Shown piece after piece: positions 3,965-64,000 of a stretch of DNA of 64,000 nucleotides; position 1 is the stretch's first letter; each line of letters starts with the position of its first letter. A program made the translations under genes and the position numbers. Location of the stretch: the IMG/VR virus record IMGVR_UViG_3300031998_000007; one strand, written 5' to 3'. Source of the stretch: a virus (taxonomy: Duplodnaviria > Heunggongvirae > Uroviricota > Caudoviricetes). The notes beneath the pieces were generated by a model that had not been told where the DNA came from, did not search any database, and was given only the letters and a program-made list of their open reading frames with translations.

Positions 3965-4975
3965 TTAGAACAGGGACATCAAATAATCGAAATCTTCCGG
4001 GTTCATTCCGCCGGTGTCCCGTTCTTCCGGCTTTTGTTCTTCCTGTTCAGGTTCCGGTTCCGCCGGTGTCTGTTGCTCCGCCGGTGCAGGTTCCTGCTTT
4101 TCCGTCTCACCGAGCCCGACTGCGCCAAGACTTTCCTTCTTGTTTTCTTCCGTAGGTTCCGCCGTCGGCTGTTCGACTTCCTCGATTGCCGCATTGACAT
4201 TTTCGTCCGGGGTCTTCGGTGCAGTTTCATCCAGTTTCTCGGTTGCGAAGGCAAGGCTGTTGAGGGCCTCTTCGGCTGCATCGACCTTTGCCGGCGCTTC
4301 TTCGAGAAGTTCCTTGTCTACCTCGACCGGTTCCTTCTCGGGCTTGTTGCGGACGGTCTTTTCCGTCTTGAAAAATTCTCCGGTGGCGCTTTCGGCCTGT
4401 TTTTCCTGGCCGTCGTTTGGTGTGAAGTGCGAGTTGGCCGCATCCTTCATGATGCTGGTTGCGTTGGTCTTCATGCCCTTGAACGCTGCGAGCAGGTGCT
4501 TGCAGACGAGTATTTTTCCCTGTGGGTCCCTGACGACCGGCTTGATGTCGGATCCGTCCGGCACTCCGGGAACGGACTCGAAACCTTCTTCGAGACTGCC
4601 CATCTTGTGCTTCATGTTGTATCTGGCGCCCGACCAGTTGAAGTCGGGACATGTGCAGAAACACTTGACATCGGCGTTCTTGATCGCTTCCATGCGGGAC
4701 CGGATGTCCCTTCTGGACTTCGCGAGAGCGAACAGGGACTGCTTGCCCGCCGGTATCACGGCGATGTAGCAGTCGTACATGACGTTTTCCTTGGTCTGGG
4801 ACGGGATTTTCCACCGGATTACGGCATTTCCCTCGCGGTCCTTGCCGAGGCCGCGATAGTAGTGGAGCAGCGACTTGGAACGCTGTGCGCGTCCAGTGTC
4901 AGTGCCCTTGGAAATGTCGGCCATGTTCGCTTCGATAAATGCTATCAGGTTGTTTTTGAGGACATTCGTCAGCAT
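3965..4975 (-). CDS. SWIM-type Zn-finger protein with acidic C-terminal tail
   Basis: CFCTCPDF...VCKHL (CxC-xn-CxH). AGGAG RBS. E/P/Q-rich tail ending DFDYLMSLF. Confidence 0.7.
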   Translation of the reverse strand: MLTNVLKNNLIAFIEANMADISKGTDTGRAQRSKSLLHYYRGLGKDREGNAVIRWKIPSQTKENVMYDCYIAVIPAGKQSLFALAKSRRDIRSRMEAIKNADVKCFCTCPDFNWSGARYNMKHKMGSLEEGFESVPGVPDGSDIKPVVRDPQGKILVCKHLLAAFKGMKTNATSIMKDAANSHFTPNDGQEKQAESATGEFFKTEKTVRNKPEKEPVEVDKELLEEAPAKVDAAEEALNSLAFATEKLDETAPKTPDENVNAAIEEVEQPTAEPTEENKKESLGAVGLGETEKQEPAPAEQQTPAEPEPEQEEQKPEERDTGGMNPEDFDYLMSLF

Positions 4976-57630: not shown

Positions 57631-59271
57631 ATGACGCCATACTACTACGTAAGGGAAATCGAGAAGATTGAGATAGCCCTCCTTGACGTGTTCAACAATC
57701 TCCGCGTGAACAAGTACAAGGACACGAAACGGCAGATTTACGACCGTACCGTCCGCATCCCGATTGTCACCCACACTAATGACGACTTTGCGAACTGGGT
57801 AACGACGGTCCGCGCGAAGCAGGTTGCGCAGCCTATCCCCGTAGCGGGCCTCCGCTGCACGGGAACTGCCCCCGATGACGCTCGCCGCGTGCAGCCGACA
57901 TATACCCGCAGGATTTTCTATGAACCGTTGAACCGGTGGATCCAGGACATCCAGCCCACTCCCTACATTTTCAAGTTCGAGCTGGAAATCCTCTGTGACA
58001 ACATATCCGACTTCCGGCAGGTGAAGGAAAACATCGAGCCGTATTTCAACACTTACCGCACCCTGCGCATCAGGGAGTTCGATTTCGCCCCCAAGCTCGA
58101 ACGACAGATTCCGTTCACTATCGGCGTTCCCGGCGACCAGATTGACGACGAGAAGGAACTGACTTCCAACGAATACCAGTTCTACCGCGCGAAATACAAT
58201 ATCGAGGCGCACGGCGTCTATCACCGTCCCTACGAGCTGCCGGAAATGATCCGTTATGCGCAGATGGACTTCAACATCGACGAGCGACTAATCGACAGCC
58301 TGCAGGTGTTCGTTTACCCGGACGCGATTGCGCAGCAGAAGAAGCAGCTGTGGGAAACCGTGGAACCGTCCCGCCGTGAAGGCTATTCGCTGTTGAAGAC
58401 GTTTACGAGGACGCTCGTCAAGCAGTATGCCGACGACAACGAGGAATATTGGAAGGACGTGACGCTCCGCCGCATCTTCCTCACCGCCCCGCAGGTCCTT
58501 GGCCTCGACGAGAACGGGAACCCACAGAACGGGTATAACCCGCAGCTGGTCGGGTACGAGGTTGACGATAACGGCAAGTATGTCCTTGACGAGAATGGCG
58601 ACCGCATCCCGATTTATGACTTTACCGAGGTGGTGGTCGATGATGTCGCCCGGCCTACCGAGGTCCCGGAATTTGACCTTCTCCACCTTACGTTCGATGA
58701 CGATTCCGATGTCGCGAAGGATTTTAGCGGCATGGGCCGTGACTTCGTCGCAATCAACGCGGCAAGCCGCGAGTTCGTCCCGTCCATCCCTCCAGGAAAC
58801 GGCTCATACGCCCCGGGCGGGTACGCTTCGGACGGACTGCAGAATACCGGCGTCGCCGGCGAGCGCAAGGAATGGTCGCAGATACTTGACTGGTTCGGCG
58901 ATAACGAGGGCGGTCTCATCGAGTCCTCATACACGTTCAAGGCCACGTTGCAGTTCAAGGAACTCGGCGATACGGTCTTCCAGTATCTCTACAACCCGGA
59001 GGACACCACCGCCCACGACGGTACGGTAATCCCGAAGGGTACTGTCTGGTTCGACTGGGGCGTGATGGACAACCGTCTCTACTTCACTTTCCATACCGCA
59101 ACCATGCACAAGACGTTCAGGACGGACGAATACGACTTCGACACGGAAACCATCTATTCGTTCTATTTCGTTCTCTACAATCACGGCGAGAACGGCGCGT
59201 TCGGCGTCAAGACAAACTTCTCCGACACGATGGTTGCCGTGAACACGTTCGAGGTTACCGATGGATCCTAG
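57631..59271 (+). CDS. gp15: Tail sheath terminator/stabiliser (gp15-like) with C-terminal extension
   Basis: YYYVREIEK..IALLDVFNNLRV...VRIPI and PTPY.FKFEL.I parallel T4 gp15 YFYNSSFRRY..LMGDLFSNIQI...IRVPI. Confidence 0.75.
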   Translation: MTPYYYVREIEKIEIALLDVFNNLRVNKYKDTKRQIYDRTVRIPIVTHTNDDFANWVTTVRAKQVAQPIPVAGLRCTGTAPDDARRVQPTYTRRIFYEPLNRWIQDIQPTPYIFKFELEILCDNISDFRQVKENIEPYFNTYRTLRIREFDFAPKLERQIPFTIGVPGDQIDDEKELTSNEYQFYRAKYNIEAHGVYHRPYELPEMIRYAQMDFNIDERLIDSLQVFVYPDAIAQQKKQLWETVEPSRREGYSLLKTFTRTLVKQYADDNEEYWKDVTLRRIFLTAPQVLGLDENGNPQNGYNPQLVGYEVDDNGKYVLDENGDRIPIYDFTEVVVDDVARPTEVPEFDLLHLTFDDDSDVAKDFSGMGRDFVAINAASREFVPSIPPGNGSYAPGGYASDGLQNTGVAGERKEWSQILDWFGDNEGGLIESSYTFKATLQFKELGDTVFQYLYNPEDTTAHDGTVIPKGTVWFDWGVMDNRLYFTFHTATMHKTFRTDEYDFDTETIYSFYFVLYNHGENGAFGVKTNFSDTMVAVNTFEVTDGS

Positions 59272-60389: not shown

Positions 60390-60572
60390 GTGAACCGCGA
60401 GCAGATGAAGAAGTTCCTTGATGCCCAGCGAGAGGAAATCGAGCGGCACAAGTGGATTGAATCCGAGAAAGCGGGACGGGACCTCGGCGAGGCCGCTGCC
60501 AGGGATTGGGTGGCGAAATACGCAAAAGTTTTCCGAGAGGAGTACGAAAGAAAAAATGGACAACAATTTTGA
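60390..60572 (+). CDS. DUF4032-like small protein
   Basis: EIERHKWIESEKAGRDLG..AA.DW..KY. Confidence 0.7.
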   Translation: MNREQMKKFLDAQREEIERHKWIESEKAGRDLGEAAARDWVAKYAKVFREEYERKNGQQF

Positions 60573-61053
60573 AAAGATGGAACGCGGGCTGGCCCGTCTC
60601 GGTGGACATCCGTTCCCGATGATGGAAAATGCGGAAACCACGGCCAAGGCCAGAGATGCCGATGTTCTCAAATCGGTTGCATGCGACTTGCTCGGATATG
60701 CGAACGAGTTCCATGTCTATCACTGGAACTCGAAGACCAACTTCGAGCACGAACTGATGGGTGAGGTCTATGACCTCATGCGCGACACGTCCGACAGGCT
60801 TGCCGAGCGTTACCTGTCTATGTCCGATGTCGATTCGTTCGTCCCGGAAGGCAATTTCGGGACAGATCGCAAGGACTGGGCCCCGGGCAAGGAAACTATC
60901 CTATCCCGCATGGAGACCATCCTTAAAGGCATGGACGACGCGTTCAACGAGCACCCGGACCTCGCTAAGTTCGGCGGTATCGGCAACATCTTCTCCGACT
61001 TCGACGAGAAGATGGCAACAATCATCTACAAGTACAAGCGCTTCGAAGGATAA
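60556..61053 (+). CDS. Ferritin/Dps-like four-helix protein (DUF5856-like)
   Basis: HVYHWNS...EHELMGEVYD...DRLAERY. Confidence 0.7.
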   Translation: MDNNFEKMERGLARLGGHPFPMMENAETTAKARDADVLKSVACDLLGYANEFHVYHWNSKTNFEHELMGEVYDLMRDTSDRLAERYLSMSDVDSFVPEGNFGTDRKDWAPGKETILSRMETILKGMDDAFNEHPDLAKFGGIGNIFSDFDEKMATIIYKYKRFEG

Positions 61054-61056
61054 GAT

Positions 61057-61815
61057 ATGGCCAGCGGACGACTGATGACACGAGATGACATGGCGACCTG
61101 GGTCAAGCGTCGCCTCGGTGCCCCGTTGACGGACATCGAAATGGTGGTTGAGGAAGACAATGGCCTGGGTCATATCCACATGGCCATCCAGGACTGCCTC
61201 GACTTCTTCTGGAAGTCCAGTGTCGATGAATCCTCTTACCAGGACATCCTAGTCATCCACCTCGAACCGGGCGTGATGGAATACCGTGTCCCGGACGAGT
61301 GCATGCAGTTCATCGACATCAGCCCGTCATACGGCAACACCTTCTCCCCGATGATGGCGTGGGATGTTGGTCCGGGTGAATCGCTCATGGCTATCGGCGG
61401 TGCGACGATTGGCAATTTCGGCCAGTTCGACCTCGTCACCTACTGCAATTCGCTTCGGACTCTGCAGGATTACAAGAAGATTATCGGGACCCAGTATGAC
61501 ATCCACTTCTACCCGACGGAACACATCGTCCGTATCTACCCGACCCCGAAGGCTCCGAGGAAGGCCATCGCCAAGGTGTTCATGAAGGCGAAGATGTCGG
61601 AAATCTTCTGCAACCCGTATTTCCGCGAAATGTGTGTCGCGAAGGCGCAGATGCAGCTGGGCGAAATCCTCAGCAAGGACGACTTCACGATGCCGGGTGG
61701 TGTCAAGATTGACGGCAAGGGAATTTACGACAGGGCTGAAAAGCGCTTCGACAAGTTCTTTGACCTGATGCTTGAACAGGCACCGGGCGCCATGATTATG
61801 ACGGACCTTTCCTAA
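61057..61815 (+). CDS. gp13: Neck protein (gp13-like)
   Basis: RDDM..WVKRRLGAP...IE...AIQDCLDFF and WG-like QLGEILSK...MPGGV.IDG..IY..A. Confidence 0.85.
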   Translation: MASGRLMTRDDMATWVKRRLGAPLTDIEMVVEEDNGLGHIHMAIQDCLDFFWKSSVDESSYQDILVIHLEPGVMEYRVPDECMQFIDISPSYGNTFSPMMAWDVGPGESLMAIGGATIGNFGQFDLVTYCNSLRTLQDYKKIIGTQYDIHFYPTEHIVRIYPTPKAPRKAIAKVFMKAKMSEIFCNPYFREMCVAKAQMQLGEILSKDDFTMPGGVKIDGKGIYDRAEKRFDKFFDLMLEQAPGAMIMTDLS

Positions 61816-61832
61816 CAACATTCCAGCCAAAG

Positions 61833-61865
61833 ATGGACCGGGTTCCGGTCCATTTTTCTATATTT
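61833..61865 (+). terminator. Terminator overlapping a TTTTTCTATATTT promoter-like motif
   Basis: ATGGACCGG-GTT-CCGGTCCAT followed by TTTTCTATATTT, 5 nt before the ATG at 61871. Confidence 0.7.
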
Positions 61866-61870
61866 GGACT

Positions 61871-62152
61871 ATGCTCGAACTGTTCTCCAATTTCTCCGGC
61901 ATTTGCGGTTCAGTCGCATTCGCCGTATGTCTCCTGCCCCAGGTCATCTCCTGTCTCCGTGCGAAGGACGCGAGCCAGCTTTCCTGGGGTTTCCTGTTCC
62001 TGTCCTATGTCGGGAACCTCGCCACGGCCGAATATGTCGCATACGGTGACGTCGTGAACGGCACCTTGCACCTGCCCCTGTATTTCAACTACGGGATTGC
62101 GACTACCCTCCTTTCTATCCTTTTGTACTGCAAGCTGAAATACGCGCGGTGA
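61871..62152 (+). CDS. PQ-loop/SemiSWEET-like membrane protein
   Basis: 93 aa with three hydrophobic helices and LLPQV...KDASQLSW motif. Confidence 0.8.
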   Translation: MLELFSNFSGICGSVAFAVCLLPQVISCLRAKDASQLSWGFLFLSYVGNLATAEYVAYGDVVNGTLHLPLYFNYGIATTLLSILLYCKLKYAR

Positions 62153-62184
62153 TTTTTGCTATATTTTACCTCAGAGGTAAAATT

Positions 62185-62754
62185 ATGGCCAATGAAACCA
62201 CTATCCATAGCGTGAGCCTTGCCAAGGCGTTCAGCATCCGCAAGAAGCTCTGCGACCTAATCCGCAAGGAAGAGGACTTGCTCATCAAGTTCCCTACCTA
62301 TGCTTATGACGAAGCCGTTGCCGATGTCAATGGACGTCTCAACAAGCCCAGTATCGAGGAAGAATTTGCGTTCTATGACGCGCTCCTCTACGCCAAGTCG
62401 ATTATCGTGAAGGCAATCGAGGACGTGAACGGCAATGGTCAGCATCTCCTTGCCGACATCGCCCGCGTTGACGCTGCCCTCCGCATCGAACAGAGCATGC
62501 TTACACGAGCAAAGGACGCCAAGACTTCCGAACGTGTCCTTGACCAGGTCCACGGCAACTACATCATTACGCAGCTCCAGCGCACCGCGCCGTCCACGGA
62601 GTTCCTCGAAAAGCGTATCATGGCCGACATCAACCAGAAGAACACGCTCGAAGACGCCCTTTCTGCATATAATGCGGAAACCGTTGTGCAGTTCCCGCTC
62701 GACGAAGAAATCGCCAAGAAGATCGGCCTGGGGAAGGAAGAAGCCACCAATTAA
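62185..62754 (+). CDS. DIP1984-like coiled-coil protein
   Basis: SLAKAFSIRKKL at the N-terminus and LEDALSAYNAETVV at the C-terminus resemble DIP1984-family KLAEAL..R and LD..IQ..N..T. GAGG RBS. Confidence 0.5.
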   Translation: MANETTIHSVSLAKAFSIRKKLCDLIRKEEDLLIKFPTYAYDEAVADVNGRLNKPSIEEEFAFYDALLYAKSIIVKAIEDVNGNGQHLLADIARVDAALRIEQSMLTRAKDAKTSERVLDQVHGNYIITQLQRTAPSTEFLEKRIMADINQKNTLEDALSAYNAETVVQFPLDEEIAKKIGLGKEEATN

Positions 62755-63040
62755 CGGTCGCAACGGCTTCGGTCAATGCCACCACGTTGCACGCCAAAGA
62801 AGATCGTTGCTGCACGGTATGTGCAAAACGCTACGAGGAAATTTGGTGTCGACCGGTCCGGCTAGTTCCGTTCAGCTCAGGTACGGCACGGCGACAGGAA
62901 AGTGTTCCGAGGGCGTTCGTAGAGTTCTTAAAGTTACAACGCTCGCAACAGTCACTCCCTATACTGCTTGGTCCGTGCGATGCCCGACTAGACCGGAAGC
63001 CAAATGCGGTTCCCGTTGGATATGGTAGCGGGGAACCGAA
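62755..63040 (+). ncRNA. Candidate structured non-coding RNA (about 165-nt rod plus flanking hairpins)
   Basis: Longest non-coding gap in the window. Nested pairings 62841-47/62999-63005, 62857-66/62987-97, 62886-91/62973-78, 62896-904/62953-60 and 62908-21/62935-45. Extra hairpins at 62760-90, 62811-25 and 63007-38. Strand assumed from context. Confidence 0.5.
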
Positions 63041-63065
63041 GCGACTGCATTTTCAAGGGTTTGAC

Positions 63066-63176
63066 ATGAAAACACATCAGAAAATCATCAACTGCATCCA
63101 GCTCGTCGCAATCGCGTTTTTCGCGGGGCGTTTCATCTATAACCTGGTGCGCAAGTTCAGGGGGGACATCGTATGA
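63066..63176 (+). CDS. Small membrane peptide, 36 aa
   Basis: MKTHQKIINCIQLVAIAFFAGRFIYNLVRKFRGDIV with one hydrophobic helix. AAGGG RBS. Overlaps the next start. Confidence 0.5.
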   Translation: MKTHQKIINCIQLVAIAFFAGRFIYNLVRKFRGDIV

Positions 63177-64000
63177 TGAAGTATGACGAAGCCTCCGCAA
63201 CGAACCTCATCTTTGACATCGACAGGATAGTAAGCACACTCGGCATGCCGAAGTTCAGCCGTCGTCTGTCGGCCAAGGACAACCTCAAACGCGCGGCAAA
63301 GGCGCTTGTGACTGCCGACACCAGCAGCGCAGCACTGGGGTATCGCGGTACATGTGCTCTCCTTTCAGTGTCCCATGTCATGTGCACGATTGCCGCCCGT
63401 AGCGGTCACCCGGTCATCGCGGCATATCTTTCGTGCGCCCGGAACGTCCTCGCCGAATATACCATTGCCCGCGGTGTCGATAAGCTATTCTCGTTCTCCA
63501 GCACACCGAACCAGCGAGTGTGGTATAATATCCAGCATACCGATCTTGTCGGGACCAAGTATGAAAATATCCCCATCACGAAAATCAATCTGGTGTCCCG
63601 CTCAATCGTGGCGGCAAGCTCTCGCGAGAAGAATTTCCTGTTCAGGTTTGGCGATTCCGATGTCCCGATGGATGTAGTCCATAACGGGAAGACCTATAAG
63701 GTCCGCCCCGTGGCGACAAACATCGAGGAATGCATTCCGGTGAACTCGGCTTTGCTCAGGATTACGTCGAAGCGCGAATACGAAGGTTCGTTCGACCCGT
63801 ATGTATGCGTCCAGGTTGGCGACAGTTTCATCGCGTTCGTGATGAGTCTTGATTCCCCGGTTCACTACGAGTCATCGAACCCGCCTGCACCGGGAACCGA
63901 AGAATACAACCGTATGATGCAGCAGGCCGAGATCATGCGGAACGGCATGAACGAACCGCGTCCCATTTCGGTAATCATTGCCAACATGGGCGAGGAGAAA
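63173..64000 (+). CDS. Hypothetical protein, truncated by the right window edge (MMKYDEASATNL...)
   Basis: Hand translation is open for 276 codons to the window end. GGGGG RBS-like sequence. Confidence 0.75.
   Translation, partial: MMKYDEASATNLIFDIDRIVSTLGMPKFSRRLSAKDNLKRAAKALVTADTSSAALGYRGTCALLSVSHVMCTIAARSGHPVIAAYLSCARNVLAEYTIARGVDKLFSFSSTPNQRVWYNIQHTDLVGTKYENIPITKINLVSRSIVAASSREKNFLFRFGDSDVPMDVVHNGKTYKVRPVATNIEECIPVNSALLRITSKREYEGSFDPYVCVQVGDSFIAFVMSLDSPVHYESSNPPAPGTEEYNRMMQQAEIMRNGMNEPRPISVIIANMGEEK

What the first reader, a model, noticed from the sequence alone, without database searches (positions are those of the whole stretch)
62755..63065. Candidate novel phage ncRNA: ~165-nt nested rod with flanking hairpins downstream of a DIP1984-like gene
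Seen: the only ~300-nt gap in a wall-to-wall coding window. Manual folding gives a continuous rod: ATTTGGT/GCCAAAT, TCCGG-CTAGT/ACTAG-A-CCGGA, an asymmetric bubble (62867-80), GCACGG/CCGTGC, AGG..AGTG/CACT.CCT, CGA..GCGTT/AACGC-TCG and GTA/TAC. There are further hairpins at 62760-90, 62811-25 and 63007-38, none with a terminator U-tract. Established: 6S RNA is a rod of similar length with a central bubble that binds RNAP holoenzyme, and Y-like RNAs pair their ends. Inference: a sigma-sequestering 6S-like decoy that could aid the switch to gp55, or an RNA partner of the upstream coiled-coil protein, forming an undescribed protein-RNA module.
Basis: partly seen in the sequence, partly recalled or inferred. 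Interest (0 to 1): 0.75.

Follow-up and report, generated by a model that had tools for sequence, protein, structure and literature searches.

The report
New phage RNA tied to DIP1984-like protein
The 311-base gap encodes a conserved, roughly 290-nucleotide folded RNA that matches no described RNA family; a similar untranslated stretch follows this helical protein's gene in every relative examined, in large gut and rumen phages, so the two probably work together, but it is not the 6S-like rod first proposed.

Summary
The gap 62755-63065 is real and non-coding. It holds a structured plus-strand RNA (core 62755-63047).

- **Conservation.** Phages whose flanking protein is only 55% identical keep the RNA's length (287-289 nt) and long invariant blocks.
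- **Fold.** The conserved fold is multi-branched: a closing helix P1 that starts at the upstream stop codon, a long-range P2, an internal domain of about 220 nt, a 3' hairpin, then P1'.
It folds no better than shuffles (z -0.79) and breaks in the sister clade. The comparative fold keeps 98.6% of pairs, 21 of 64 through compensatory changes.
- **More distant copies.** A covariance model finds full-length copies behind homologues of 25-28% identity (E 9e-7 and 2e-3).
- **Linkage to the protein.** All 12 protein lineages examined have a 290-500 nt ORF-free stretch right after the stop codon, while the downstream genes differ. An AT-rich clade independently shows the same architecture, though homology with it is not shown.
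- **Databases and papers.** Rfam 15 gives no hit. The protein's only full-length fold match is DIP1984 (3KDQ), of unknown function. No paper found describes the pair.

Best reading: a new RNA class co-transcribed with, and probably bound by, the upstream protein. The 6S reading is rejected.

The parts
62157..62165 (+). Promoter-like motif TGCTATATT, 20 nt upstream of the protein gene's ATG. No such motif lies between the gene and the RNA.
   Evidence: There are three exact copies in the window (20345, 23630, 62157), all on the + strand just upstream of ORF starts. The same GCTATATTT motif precedes the homologous gene, and the next gene, in L019 and L016. Its promoter function is inferred.
62185..62754 (+). 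Gene for a 189-aa helical protein with a DIP1984 / DUF6847 ('septicolysin')-like fold. It is the constant neighbour of the RNA.
   Evidence: AF2 pLDDT 92.3. 3KDQ is the best and only full-length PDB match (Foldseek prob 1.0, TM 0.53-0.64; VIA Z 10.7 over 144 residues). Sequence-level matches are weak or absent. Atlas neighbours carry PF20935.
62755..63047 (+). Core of the structured RNA, from the P1 5' strand to the P1 3' strand. It starts one base after the stop codon.
   Evidence: Conserved in alignments A2, A4 and A8. Consensus fold. CM R1 finds distant copies. Single copy in the 213-kb record.
62755..62761 (+). P1, 5' strand (CGGUCGC). It pairs with 63041-63047.
   Evidence: 7-9 bp in four lineages with different sequences: CGGUCGC/GCGACUG, GCGUGUCGC/GCGGCAUGU, GUGUCGC/GCGACAU and UAGUGCCGU/ACGGCAUUA.
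62765..62772 (+). P2, 5' strand (GGCUUCGG), after the invariant AAC junction. It pairs with 62993-63001.
   Evidence: GGCUUCGG/CCGGAAGCC, GGUCCCGG/CCGGGUUCC, GGAAUGC/(G)CGUAUUCC and GGGGCCG/CGGCUCC in four lineages.
62789..62807 (+). 5' strands of two long-range helices. P3 (62789-97) pairs with 62968-76; P4 (62799-807) pairs with 62910-18. Both are tentative.
   Evidence: 3 and 4 compensated pairs between the two clades. A brute-force scan shows that short stacks of this kind also arise by chance when only two clades are compared.
62811..62825 (+). P5 hairpin (UGCAC-GGUAU-GUGCA).
   Evidence: A hairpin of different sequence sits at the same place in the relatives: AUGCGC/GCGCAU (L008), AUCGU/ACGAU (L016), UGACU/AGUCA (L019) and ACGGGAA/UUCCCGU (L018) (read directly from the sequences).
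62825..62840 (+). Invariant single-stranded block AAAACGCUACGA, followed by the P6 5' strand GGAA (which pairs with UUCC at 62905-08).
   Evidence: The block is invariant between clades with 55%-identical proteins. P6 reads GGAA/UUCC, GGGA/UCCC, GUAC/GUAC (L016) and GGG/CCC (L018) (partly by eye).
62847..62896 (+). Central stem-loop domain (P7-P10): UGUCG/CGACA, CCG/CGG, CCGGCU/GGUACGG and an apical GUU/CAG stem with loop CCGUU.
Evidence: 17 pairs, 100% kept, 4 compensated (UGUCG/CGACA becomes UGCUG/CAGCA), with several invariant G-U pairs.
62899..62956 (+). Conserved, mostly unpaired motifs: AAAGU, CGAGGG, AGUUCnUAAnGUU and CAAnAnUCACU.
   Evidence: Conserved between clades. Recognisable in L016, L018 and L019 as AAAG..CGAGGG, UCnUAAAAnU and AAnnUUCAC. 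No role is known.
62993..63006 (+). P2 3' strand (CCGGAAGCC) and the junction AAAUG.
   Evidence: CCAAA(U/A)G is conserved in four lineages. A similar (C)CAAUG follows P2' in most AT-rich copies.
63007..63038 (+). 3' hairpin (CGGUUCCCG...CGGGGAACCG).
   Evidence: The stem is kept with different sequences, and the whole hairpin (stem plus loop) spans 32-49 nt in four lineages. 3 compensated pairs.
63041..63047 (+). P1, 3' strand (GCGACUG), after the conserved GAA junction.
63066..63176 (+). 36-aa hydrophobic ORF. Its RBS follows the RNA directly, and the ORF overlaps the start of the AAA ATPase gene (63173 onward). It is not part of the conserved module.
   Evidence: In L016 and L019 the RNA is followed by tRNA genes instead.

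Best explanation
The gap encodes a new class of structured RNA, about 290 nt long, read from the + strand. It is transcribed together with the upstream gene from the promoter-like motif at 62157, as the 3' part of that gene's mRNA. It folds into a closed, multi-branched body: P1 joins the two ends, P2 lies inside it, an internal domain of about 220 nt carries several invariant single-stranded blocks, and a 3' hairpin sits just before the P1 3' strand. The RNA is the dedicated partner of the DIP1984/DUF6847-like helical protein encoded immediately upstream. Protein and RNA are inherited and relocated as one two-part module in large rumen and gut phages, and most likely assemble into a ribonucleoprotein. 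Assembly may occur on the same transcript, because P1 begins at or inside the stop codon. **Shown:** conservation, the fold's outer architecture, the strand, the lack of coding capacity, and the genetic linkage. **Inferred:** co-transcription, binding, and any downstream activity.
For: 1. **Conservation.** RNA length is 287-289 nt, with invariant blocks between clades whose neighbouring protein is 55% identical. RNA identity is 64%, against 57-66% for the adjacent coding DNA (only the PQ-loop gene, at 78%, is higher).
2. **Structure.** 98.6% of cells are paired and 21 of 64 pairs are compensated, against 0-5 in slid controls and at most 4 of 500 shuffles. P1, P2 and the 3' hairpin are kept with different sequences in four lineages.
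3. **Distant copies.** CM R1 finds full-length copies in L016 (E 9e-7) and L019 (E 2e-3), exactly behind homologues of 28% and 25% identity.
4. **Strand.** 17% of paired cells are G-U. Pairs are 98.6% canonical on the + strand against 82.4% on the - strand.
5. **Not coding.** Relatives have 2-7 stops in all six frames. The window's 129-aa frame closes after 36 nt in relatives whose upstream protein is about 92% identical to the window's.
6. **Linkage.** All 12 protein lineages have a 290-500 nt ORF-free stretch right after the stop codon. Downstream neighbours vary: AAA ATPase, tRNAs plus DNA methylase, dCMP deaminase, and others.
7. **AT-rich clade.** An independent consensus fold gives the same P1/P2/3'-hairpin architecture, with 18 of 35 pairs compensated, against 3-5 in slid controls and 0 of 500 shuffles.
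8. **Transcription signals.** The scans found no sigma-70-like promoter and no terminator-like site inside the RNA (62755-63047); the only + strand promoter-like hit in the gap (63061-63088) lies past the RNA's 3' end, at the next gene's start. The recurrent motif lies upstream of the gene.
9. **Novelty.** No Rfam hit and no relevant literature.
Against:
- Thermodynamic stability of the single sequence is not above shuffles.
- The interior helices rest on only two clades, where chance 3-4 bp covarying stacks occur, and the structure was derived from the same alignment it was scored on.
- R1 does not detect the RNAs behind the most distant protein lineages (AT-rich clade, L144, L145, L149), even with filters off. 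Homology across the whole protein family is therefore inferred from position and architecture only.
- The protein is mildly acidic (pI 5.1-6.4 in ten of the eleven members computed, 7.8 in P0009) and has no known RNA-binding fold. Binding is not shown.
- The DIP1984 family has no known function that could guide a mechanism.
Confidence: 0.55

Rival explanations
1. The RNA is a cis-acting 3' UTR element of the upstream gene's mRNA. It would be a large structured cap that protects the transcript from 3' exonucleases, or an operator through which the protein regulates its own message. In this reading it has no function of its own in trans.
For: It starts at the stop codon, has no promoter of its own, and always travels with the upstream gene (the synteny calls listed above). 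The closing helix plus 3' hairpin would make a stable 3' end.
Against: About 290 nt with several invariant single-stranded blocks and a multi-domain fold is far more than known stabilisers need. In the window no terminator follows, and transcription seems to run on into the next genes. In L019 a tRNA gene follows 8 nt later, so the element would not be at the transcript's 3' end unless it is processed.
Confidence: 0.17
2. The RNA is an independent stable RNA, such as a ribozyme, a decoy for a host factor, or a self-assembling RNA like ROOL or GOLLD. It merely shares a transcription unit with the upstream gene, and the protein is not its partner.
For: In L016 and L019 it lies in tRNA gene clusters, close to genes for RtcB (L019 only), NAD synthase (L016 and L020) and DNA methylase. 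Phage-borne ROOL and GOLLD also sit near tRNAs (the near-tRNA placement is from my own knowledge; 10.1101/2024.12.08.627333, known here only from its search-result abstract, describes GOLLD and ROOL as large ornate RNAs solved by cryo-EM). Invariant unpaired blocks are typical of RNAs with tertiary or catalytic cores. The protein has no RNA-binding signature.
Against: The protein gene is the one constant neighbour in 12 lineages, across very different contexts and base compositions, and the RNA always starts within about 15 nt of its stop codon. Mere co-transcription would not preserve that over such divergence.
Confidence: 0.15
3. One reading: a 6S-like rod with a central bubble that sequesters sigma-70 holoenzyme.
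For: The window's own minimum-energy fold contains the rod helices. The length is roughly 6S-like.
Against: The rod is no more stable than shuffles and is broken in the sister clade. The conserved fold is branched. No 6S model matches at E <= 10.
Confidence: 0.03
4. A toxin-antitoxin-like pair: the 'septicolysin'-like protein is toxic and the downstream RNA neutralises it, in the manner of a type III system.
For: It is a two-part protein-plus-RNA module that moves as a unit. The family name hints at a cytolysin.
Against: Known type III antitoxins are short tandem repeats upstream of an endoribonuclease toxin. Here the RNA is unique in sequence, lies downstream and is complex. No tandem-repeat scan was run: none is visible in the sequence and the alignments place the whole RNA in one register. 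The protein has no nuclease fold. There is no evidence that the family is toxic.
Confidence: 0.04

Closest known systems
ROOL and GOLLD RNAs (large ornate phage- and prophage-associated RNAs, often near tRNA genes)
   Same: Large, conserved and highly structured, with many invariant unpaired nucleotides. Carried by phages of rumen and gut origin. Some copies (L016, L019) lie within tRNA gene clusters. Function unknown.
   Different: About 290 nt rather than about 580 or 800 nt. No match to their Rfam models. It has a constant protein-coding neighbour, which ROOL and GOLLD are not reported to have (my own knowledge).
Omega RNA of TnpB (IS200/IS605): a partner RNA encoded at and beyond the 3' end of its protein's ORF
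   Same: The gene layout is the same: the structured partner RNA starts at the end of the ORF, on the same transcript, and the pair moves as a unit.
   Different: The protein is a 189-aa helical DIP1984-like protein, not a RuvC nuclease. There are no transposon ends and no guide segment. No Rfam match. The similarity is one of arrangement only.
tmRNA
   Same: The overall topology is similar: the two ends pair (P1), a long-range P2 encloses a large internal domain, and a hairpin sits just before the 3' strand of P1.
   Different: ARAGORN and Rfam find no tmRNA. There is no T-loop, no CCA end, no G-U identity pair at a fixed place and no tag reading frame. The neighbouring protein is not SmpB-like.
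6S RNA
   Same: A non-coding RNA of broadly similar size whose ends pair.
   Different: Branched rather than rod-like, with no conserved central bubble. No 6S model matches.
DIP1984 / DUF6847 ('septicolysin') protein family (PDB 3KDQ)
   Same: The upstream protein shares the whole fold with 3KDQ. P0006 gives a weak end-to-end NCBIfam alignment.
   Different: Sequence similarity is below every family threshold. No RNA partner has been described for the bacterial family.

Membership tests
6S RNA | Match to a 6S covariance model (Rfam 6S families) | tested here: not met
   cmscan of 62000-64000, both strands, at E <= 10 gave no match to any family.
6S RNA | A conserved, largely double-stranded rod with a large central bubble | tested here: not met
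   The rod helices are broken in the sister clade. The conserved fold has three branch points.
6S RNA | Binds sigma-70 RNAP holoenzyme and templates pRNA | not testable with these tools
   Needs biochemistry.
tmRNA | tRNA-like domain with T-arm, plus a tag-peptide reading frame | tested here: not met
   ARAGORN found no tmRNA in the window. There was no Rfam tmRNA match. The 3' hairpin varies from 32 to 49 nt in all and has no T-loop.
Y RNA / YrlA | Match to the YrlA or Y RNA models, with a Ro-binding stem | tested here: not met
   No match in the RNA. The only weak YrlA hit in L019 lies on a tRNA gene, not on this RNA.
ROOL / GOLLD / OLE / raiA and other large bacterial ncRNA classes in Rfam | Match to the family's covariance model | tested here: not met
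   No match in the window, L016 or L019 at E <= 10 or E <= 1.
Type III toxin-antitoxin | RNA antitoxin made of tandem repeats upstream of an endoribonuclease toxin | tested here: not met
   The RNA is downstream. No repeat scan was run, but no tandem repeat is visible in the sequence, and the alignments place the whole RNA in a single register. The protein's fold is a helical bundle or coiled coil like 3KDQ.
DIP1984 / DUF6847 protein family (upstream protein) | Sequence match above the curated cut-off of NF038048 or PF20935 | tested here: not met
   The window protein gave no hit. P0006 scored 12.5 bits against a cut-off of 70. There was no Pfam hit at E <= 0.1 and none in G000.
DIP1984 / DUF6847 protein family (upstream protein) | The same three-dimensional fold as 3KDQ over the full length | tested here: met
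   Foldseek prob 1.0, TM 0.53-0.64 over 167-173 columns. VIA Z 10.7 with 144 of 152 residues aligned, the only full-length match. The model is a prediction (pLDDT 92).
Structured non-coding RNA (general) | Conserved base pairs supported by compensatory changes, with no conserved reading frame | tested here: met
   for the pairs. for the frames. Caveat: few independent lineages, and no R-scape test.
Structured non-coding RNA (general) | A discrete, stable transcript | not testable with these tools

The most novel reading that the evidence does not exclude
The RNA and the DIP1984-like protein form a previously unknown ribonucleoprotein of huge phages, assembled on the protein's own transcript. 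It would act in trans on a host or phage process, for example RNA metabolism around the tRNA and RtcB repair genes, or counter-defence. This would give the orphan DUF6847/'septicolysin' fold its first function, as an RNA-binding scaffold.
Probability: 0.4. Interest if true: 0.85.

Novelty: categorically new. Interest (0 to 1): 0.72.

Why it matters
- Large, intricately folded RNAs with unknown jobs are rare, and each has opened a new area. This one comes with a ready-made handle: a small, confidently modelled protein that always sits directly upstream. Pull-downs, co-expression and cryo-EM are therefore straightforward.
- It would also give a first functional lead for the DIP1984/DUF6847 fold, which is solved (3KDQ) but unexplained.
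- It adds a new component to the poorly understood RNA biology of huge rumen and gut phages, which also carry tRNA arrays, RtcB and intron-bearing tRNAs.
- If the RNA proves to be only a 3' UTR element, it would still be an unusually elaborate one.

Tried and rejected
- **Rfam** cmscan at E <= 10 on the window region, and at E <= 1 on L016 and L019: nothing on the RNA.
- **ARAGORN:** no tRNA or tmRNA in the window.
- **blastn against GenBank phages:** no match.
- **Pattern scans for more RNA copies:**
  - IMG/VR with CCAAAWGCG..CGAARCGRC returned mostly chance hits in coding DNA.
  - The longer AACGG...CGAARCGRC pattern found only the two known loci in IMG/VR.
  - In bacterial genomes it gave only chance hits.
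The subfamily alignments returned the same three IMG/VR loci twice.
- **R1 with filters off** does not detect the RNAs behind the AT-rich, L144, L145, L149 or truncated L018 genes.
- **CM alignment of L016 and L019** pushed their interiors into insertions. Their single-sequence MFE folds disagree with each other, so the interior fold outside the two closest clades stays open. In L144 and L145 the order of motifs relative to the P2-like helix looked different and was not resolved.
- **Sequence search of the protein profile against PDB:** nothing significant.
- **Literature searches** on DIP1984, septicolysin, DUF6847, prefoldin-like plus phage, and structured RNAs in huge phages: nothing relevant.
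- **Complex prediction was not used:** it does not take RNA, and no protein-protein claim is made.

Full report
**Setting**

The window is part of a 213-kb IMG/VR virus record, estimated 56% complete. Close relatives sit on contigs of 430-480 kb, so this is a huge phage. The local genes are T4-like neck and tail genes:
- gp15 tail-sheath stabiliser, 57631-59271;
- gp13-like adaptor, 61057-61815;
- a PQ-loop membrane protein, 61871-62152;
- a 189-aa protein with no family match, 62185-62754;
- the gap;
- a 36-aa hydrophobic ORF, 63066-63176;
- an AAA ATPase, from 63173.

**Checking the observation**

The gap 62755-63065 is real. Other gaps between long ORFs in the window contain ORFs of 57-107 aa. 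This one holds only a 38-aa minus-strand ORF.

The z-score is -0.79 for 62838-63008 and -1.5 for the whole gap. Rfam at E <= 10 and ARAGORN find nothing.

**Conservation**

Relatives were collected through the upstream protein and through a conserved DNA pattern. They form two clades. One is 92-98% identical in the protein. In the other the protein is only 55-57% identical.

Across the two clades the gap keeps its length (287-289 nt between the outer motifs). It also keeps long invariant blocks: GUCGCAACGG, AAAACGCUACGAGG, CCGGCUAnUUCCGU, GGUACGG, AAAGU, CGAGGG, AAGUUCnUAAnGUU and UCACU. Overall identity is 64%. That is within the range of the neighbouring genes (57-78%), above the two downstream genes and below the two upstream ones.

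The region is not coding. The second clade and more distant copies have 2-7 stop codons in all six frames. The window's open 129-aa frame (62787-63176) closes after 36 nt in relatives whose upstream protein is about 92% identical to the window's. Indels between copies are not multiples of three.

**Structure**

RNAalifold on the two clades gives a branched fold, not a rod. Counted on alignment A8:

|---|---|---|
| Cells forming a standard pair | 98.6% | 83% |
| Pairs with compensatory change | 21 of 64 | 3 of 41 |
| Same measure in slid controls | 0-5 | 0-3 |
| Shuffles reaching the observed value | at most 4 of 500 | 356 of 500 |

In the rod, the outer helix ATTTGGT/GCCAAAT is broken in 5 of 7 pairs in the second clade, and the innermost helix in 6 of 11.

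Two cautions apply. The branched structure was derived from the same alignment, and two clades amount to one comparison per pair. A brute-force scan shows that chance 3-4 bp stacks with two or three double changes do occur. I therefore treat these elements as solid:
- P1 (62755-61 with 63041-47);
- P2 (62765-72 with 62993-63001);
- the P5 hairpin (62811-25);
- the central stem-loop domain (62847-96);
- the 3' hairpin (63007-38).

P3, P4 and P6 are tentative.

Independent support comes from lineages not used to build the model. CM R1 finds full-length copies in L016 (E 9e-7) and L019 (E 2e-3). In these, P1, P2 and the 3' hairpin are formed by different sequences. For P1 the four versions are CGGUCGC/GCGACUG, GCGUGUCGC/GCGGCAUGU, GUGUCGC/GCGACAU and UAGUGCCGU/ACGGCAUUA. 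In two lineages P1 includes bases of the stop codon.

G-U pairs make up 17% of paired cells. The fold is therefore 98.6% canonical on the + strand but 82.4% on the - strand, which points to a + strand RNA rather than a DNA element.

**Linkage to the protein**

A profile search of 1.8 billion representatives found 16 relatives of the 189-aa protein, and a word-indexed search found 46 clusters. I fetched loci for 12 lineages. In every one, the gene is followed directly by 290-500 nt without a called gene.

The downstream and upstream neighbours differ:
- neck genes and an AAA ATPase in the window's group;
- tRNA genes with a DNA methylase in L016 and L019, plus NAD synthase (L016, L020) or RtcB (L019, L021);
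- an amidase, or a dCMP deaminase, in the AT-rich group.

For six AT-rich copies (proteins 21-27% identical to the window's), an independent consensus fold again gives:
- a closing P1;
- a long-range P2;
- a 3' hairpin just before the P1 3' strand;
- a (C)CAAUG junction after P2' in most copies, like the window's CCAAAUG.

In that fold 18 of 35 pairs are compensated, against 3-5 in slid controls and 0 of 500 shuffles.

R1, built narrowly, does not detect these AT-rich RNAs, and a second model could not be calibrated. Homology across the whole family is therefore inferred from position and architecture, not demonstrated.

**Transcription (inferred)**

A motif TGCTATATT lies 20 nt upstream of the protein gene's ATG. 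It recurs just upstream of other + strand ORFs, and before the homologous genes in L016 and L019. The scans show no promoter-like or terminator-like site inside the RNA; the one + strand promoter-like hit in the gap (63061-63088) lies beyond the RNA's 3' end, at the start of the next gene. In L019 a tRNA-Met gene starts 8 nt after P1.

The RNA is thus most likely made as the 3' part of the protein's mRNA and may be processed from it. Because P1 abuts or overlaps the stop codon, a terminating ribosome would hold P1 open. This fits assembly on the same transcript, though that remains speculation.

**The protein**

AlphaFold2 gives a confident model (pLDDT 92): long helices with a small sheet. 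The only full-length structural match is 3KDQ, the *C. diphtheriae* DIP1984 protein of unknown function. All other matches cover only a helical hairpin. Sequence-level evidence is weak, and Atlas neighbours carry PF20935/DUF6847.

Most family members are mildly acidic (pI 5.1-6.4 in ten of the eleven computed, 7.8 in one), with a conserved basic N-terminal helix (AFxxRKR). Nothing identifies it as an RNA binder, which is the main weakness of the ribonucleoprotein reading.

**Comparison with known systems**

No Rfam family matches, and the defining features of 6S RNA, tmRNA, Y RNA and type III antitoxins are not met. The closest analogies are:
- ROOL and GOLLD in kind (large, ornate, phage-borne RNAs near tRNAs, function unknown);
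- TnpB omega RNA in layout (the partner RNA begins at the end of the ORF).

Searches of the paper library found nothing on DIP1984/DUF6847 with an RNA, nor on this RNA. Earlier notes of this scan on the same genome describe a tRNA array and an RtcB gene 20-30 kb beyond the window.

**Verdict**

A real and apparently new structured RNA class, genetically welded to a DIP1984-like protein.
- Probability that the RNA is real and structured: about 0.9.
- Probability that it is functionally tied to the upstream gene: about 0.75.
- Probability that the two form a ribonucleoprotein: about 0.45.

The 6S-like reading is rejected. Expression and binding remain to be shown.

Noticed in passing
L016:4030-4330: A gene downstream of the RNA appears to be interrupted by a group I intron. 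Rfam Intron_gpI scores 35.8 bits at 4057-4282, below the gathering score. By eye the flanks resemble tRNA halves, but neither ARAGORN nor the Rfam tRNA model calls a tRNA there.
   Followed up: no
window 20345, 23630, 62157 (exact); 61856 (one mismatch): The recurrent + strand motif TGCTATATT lies just upstream of ORF starts. The same motif is seen in related phages (L016, L019). It is probably this phage group's promoter, reminiscent of T4 late promoters.
   Followed up: partly
window 61871-62152: A 93-aa PQ-loop membrane protein (PF04193, E 8e-8) is encoded between the neck gene and the DIP1984-like gene. It is conserved in the two closest clades. This is an unusual family for a phage structural region.
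   Followed up: no
window 61829-61857: A strong terminator-like hairpin (13 bp followed by a T run) lies right after the gp13-like gene. It overlaps the promoter-like TTCTATATT of the PQ-loop gene (61856-61864).
   Followed up: no
window 60418-61053: A 211-aa protein gives weak matches to DUF5856 and to Dps-like or 'starvation-inducible DNA-binding' PHROGs. It sits in the neck module and is also present next to gp13 in L018.
   Followed up: no
window 63066-63176 and 63173-64000: A 36-aa hydrophobic ORF overlaps the start of a roughly 600-aa AAA ATPase gene by ATGA. The pair is conserved in the two closest clades.
   Followed up: no
L019:3541-3549: In L019, and by one base in L008, the stop codon of the protein gene forms part of the RNA's closing helix P1. 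Translation termination and RNA folding would therefore compete on the same molecule.
   Followed up: partly
L144:1958-2230 and L145:2544-2832: In two intermediate lineages, the helix that looks like P2 closes before the A-rich UAAAAUU...AACAUUU motifs rather than after them. This suggests either a rearranged topology or alternative pairings. In L144, one 5' segment has two possible partners.
   Followed up: partly
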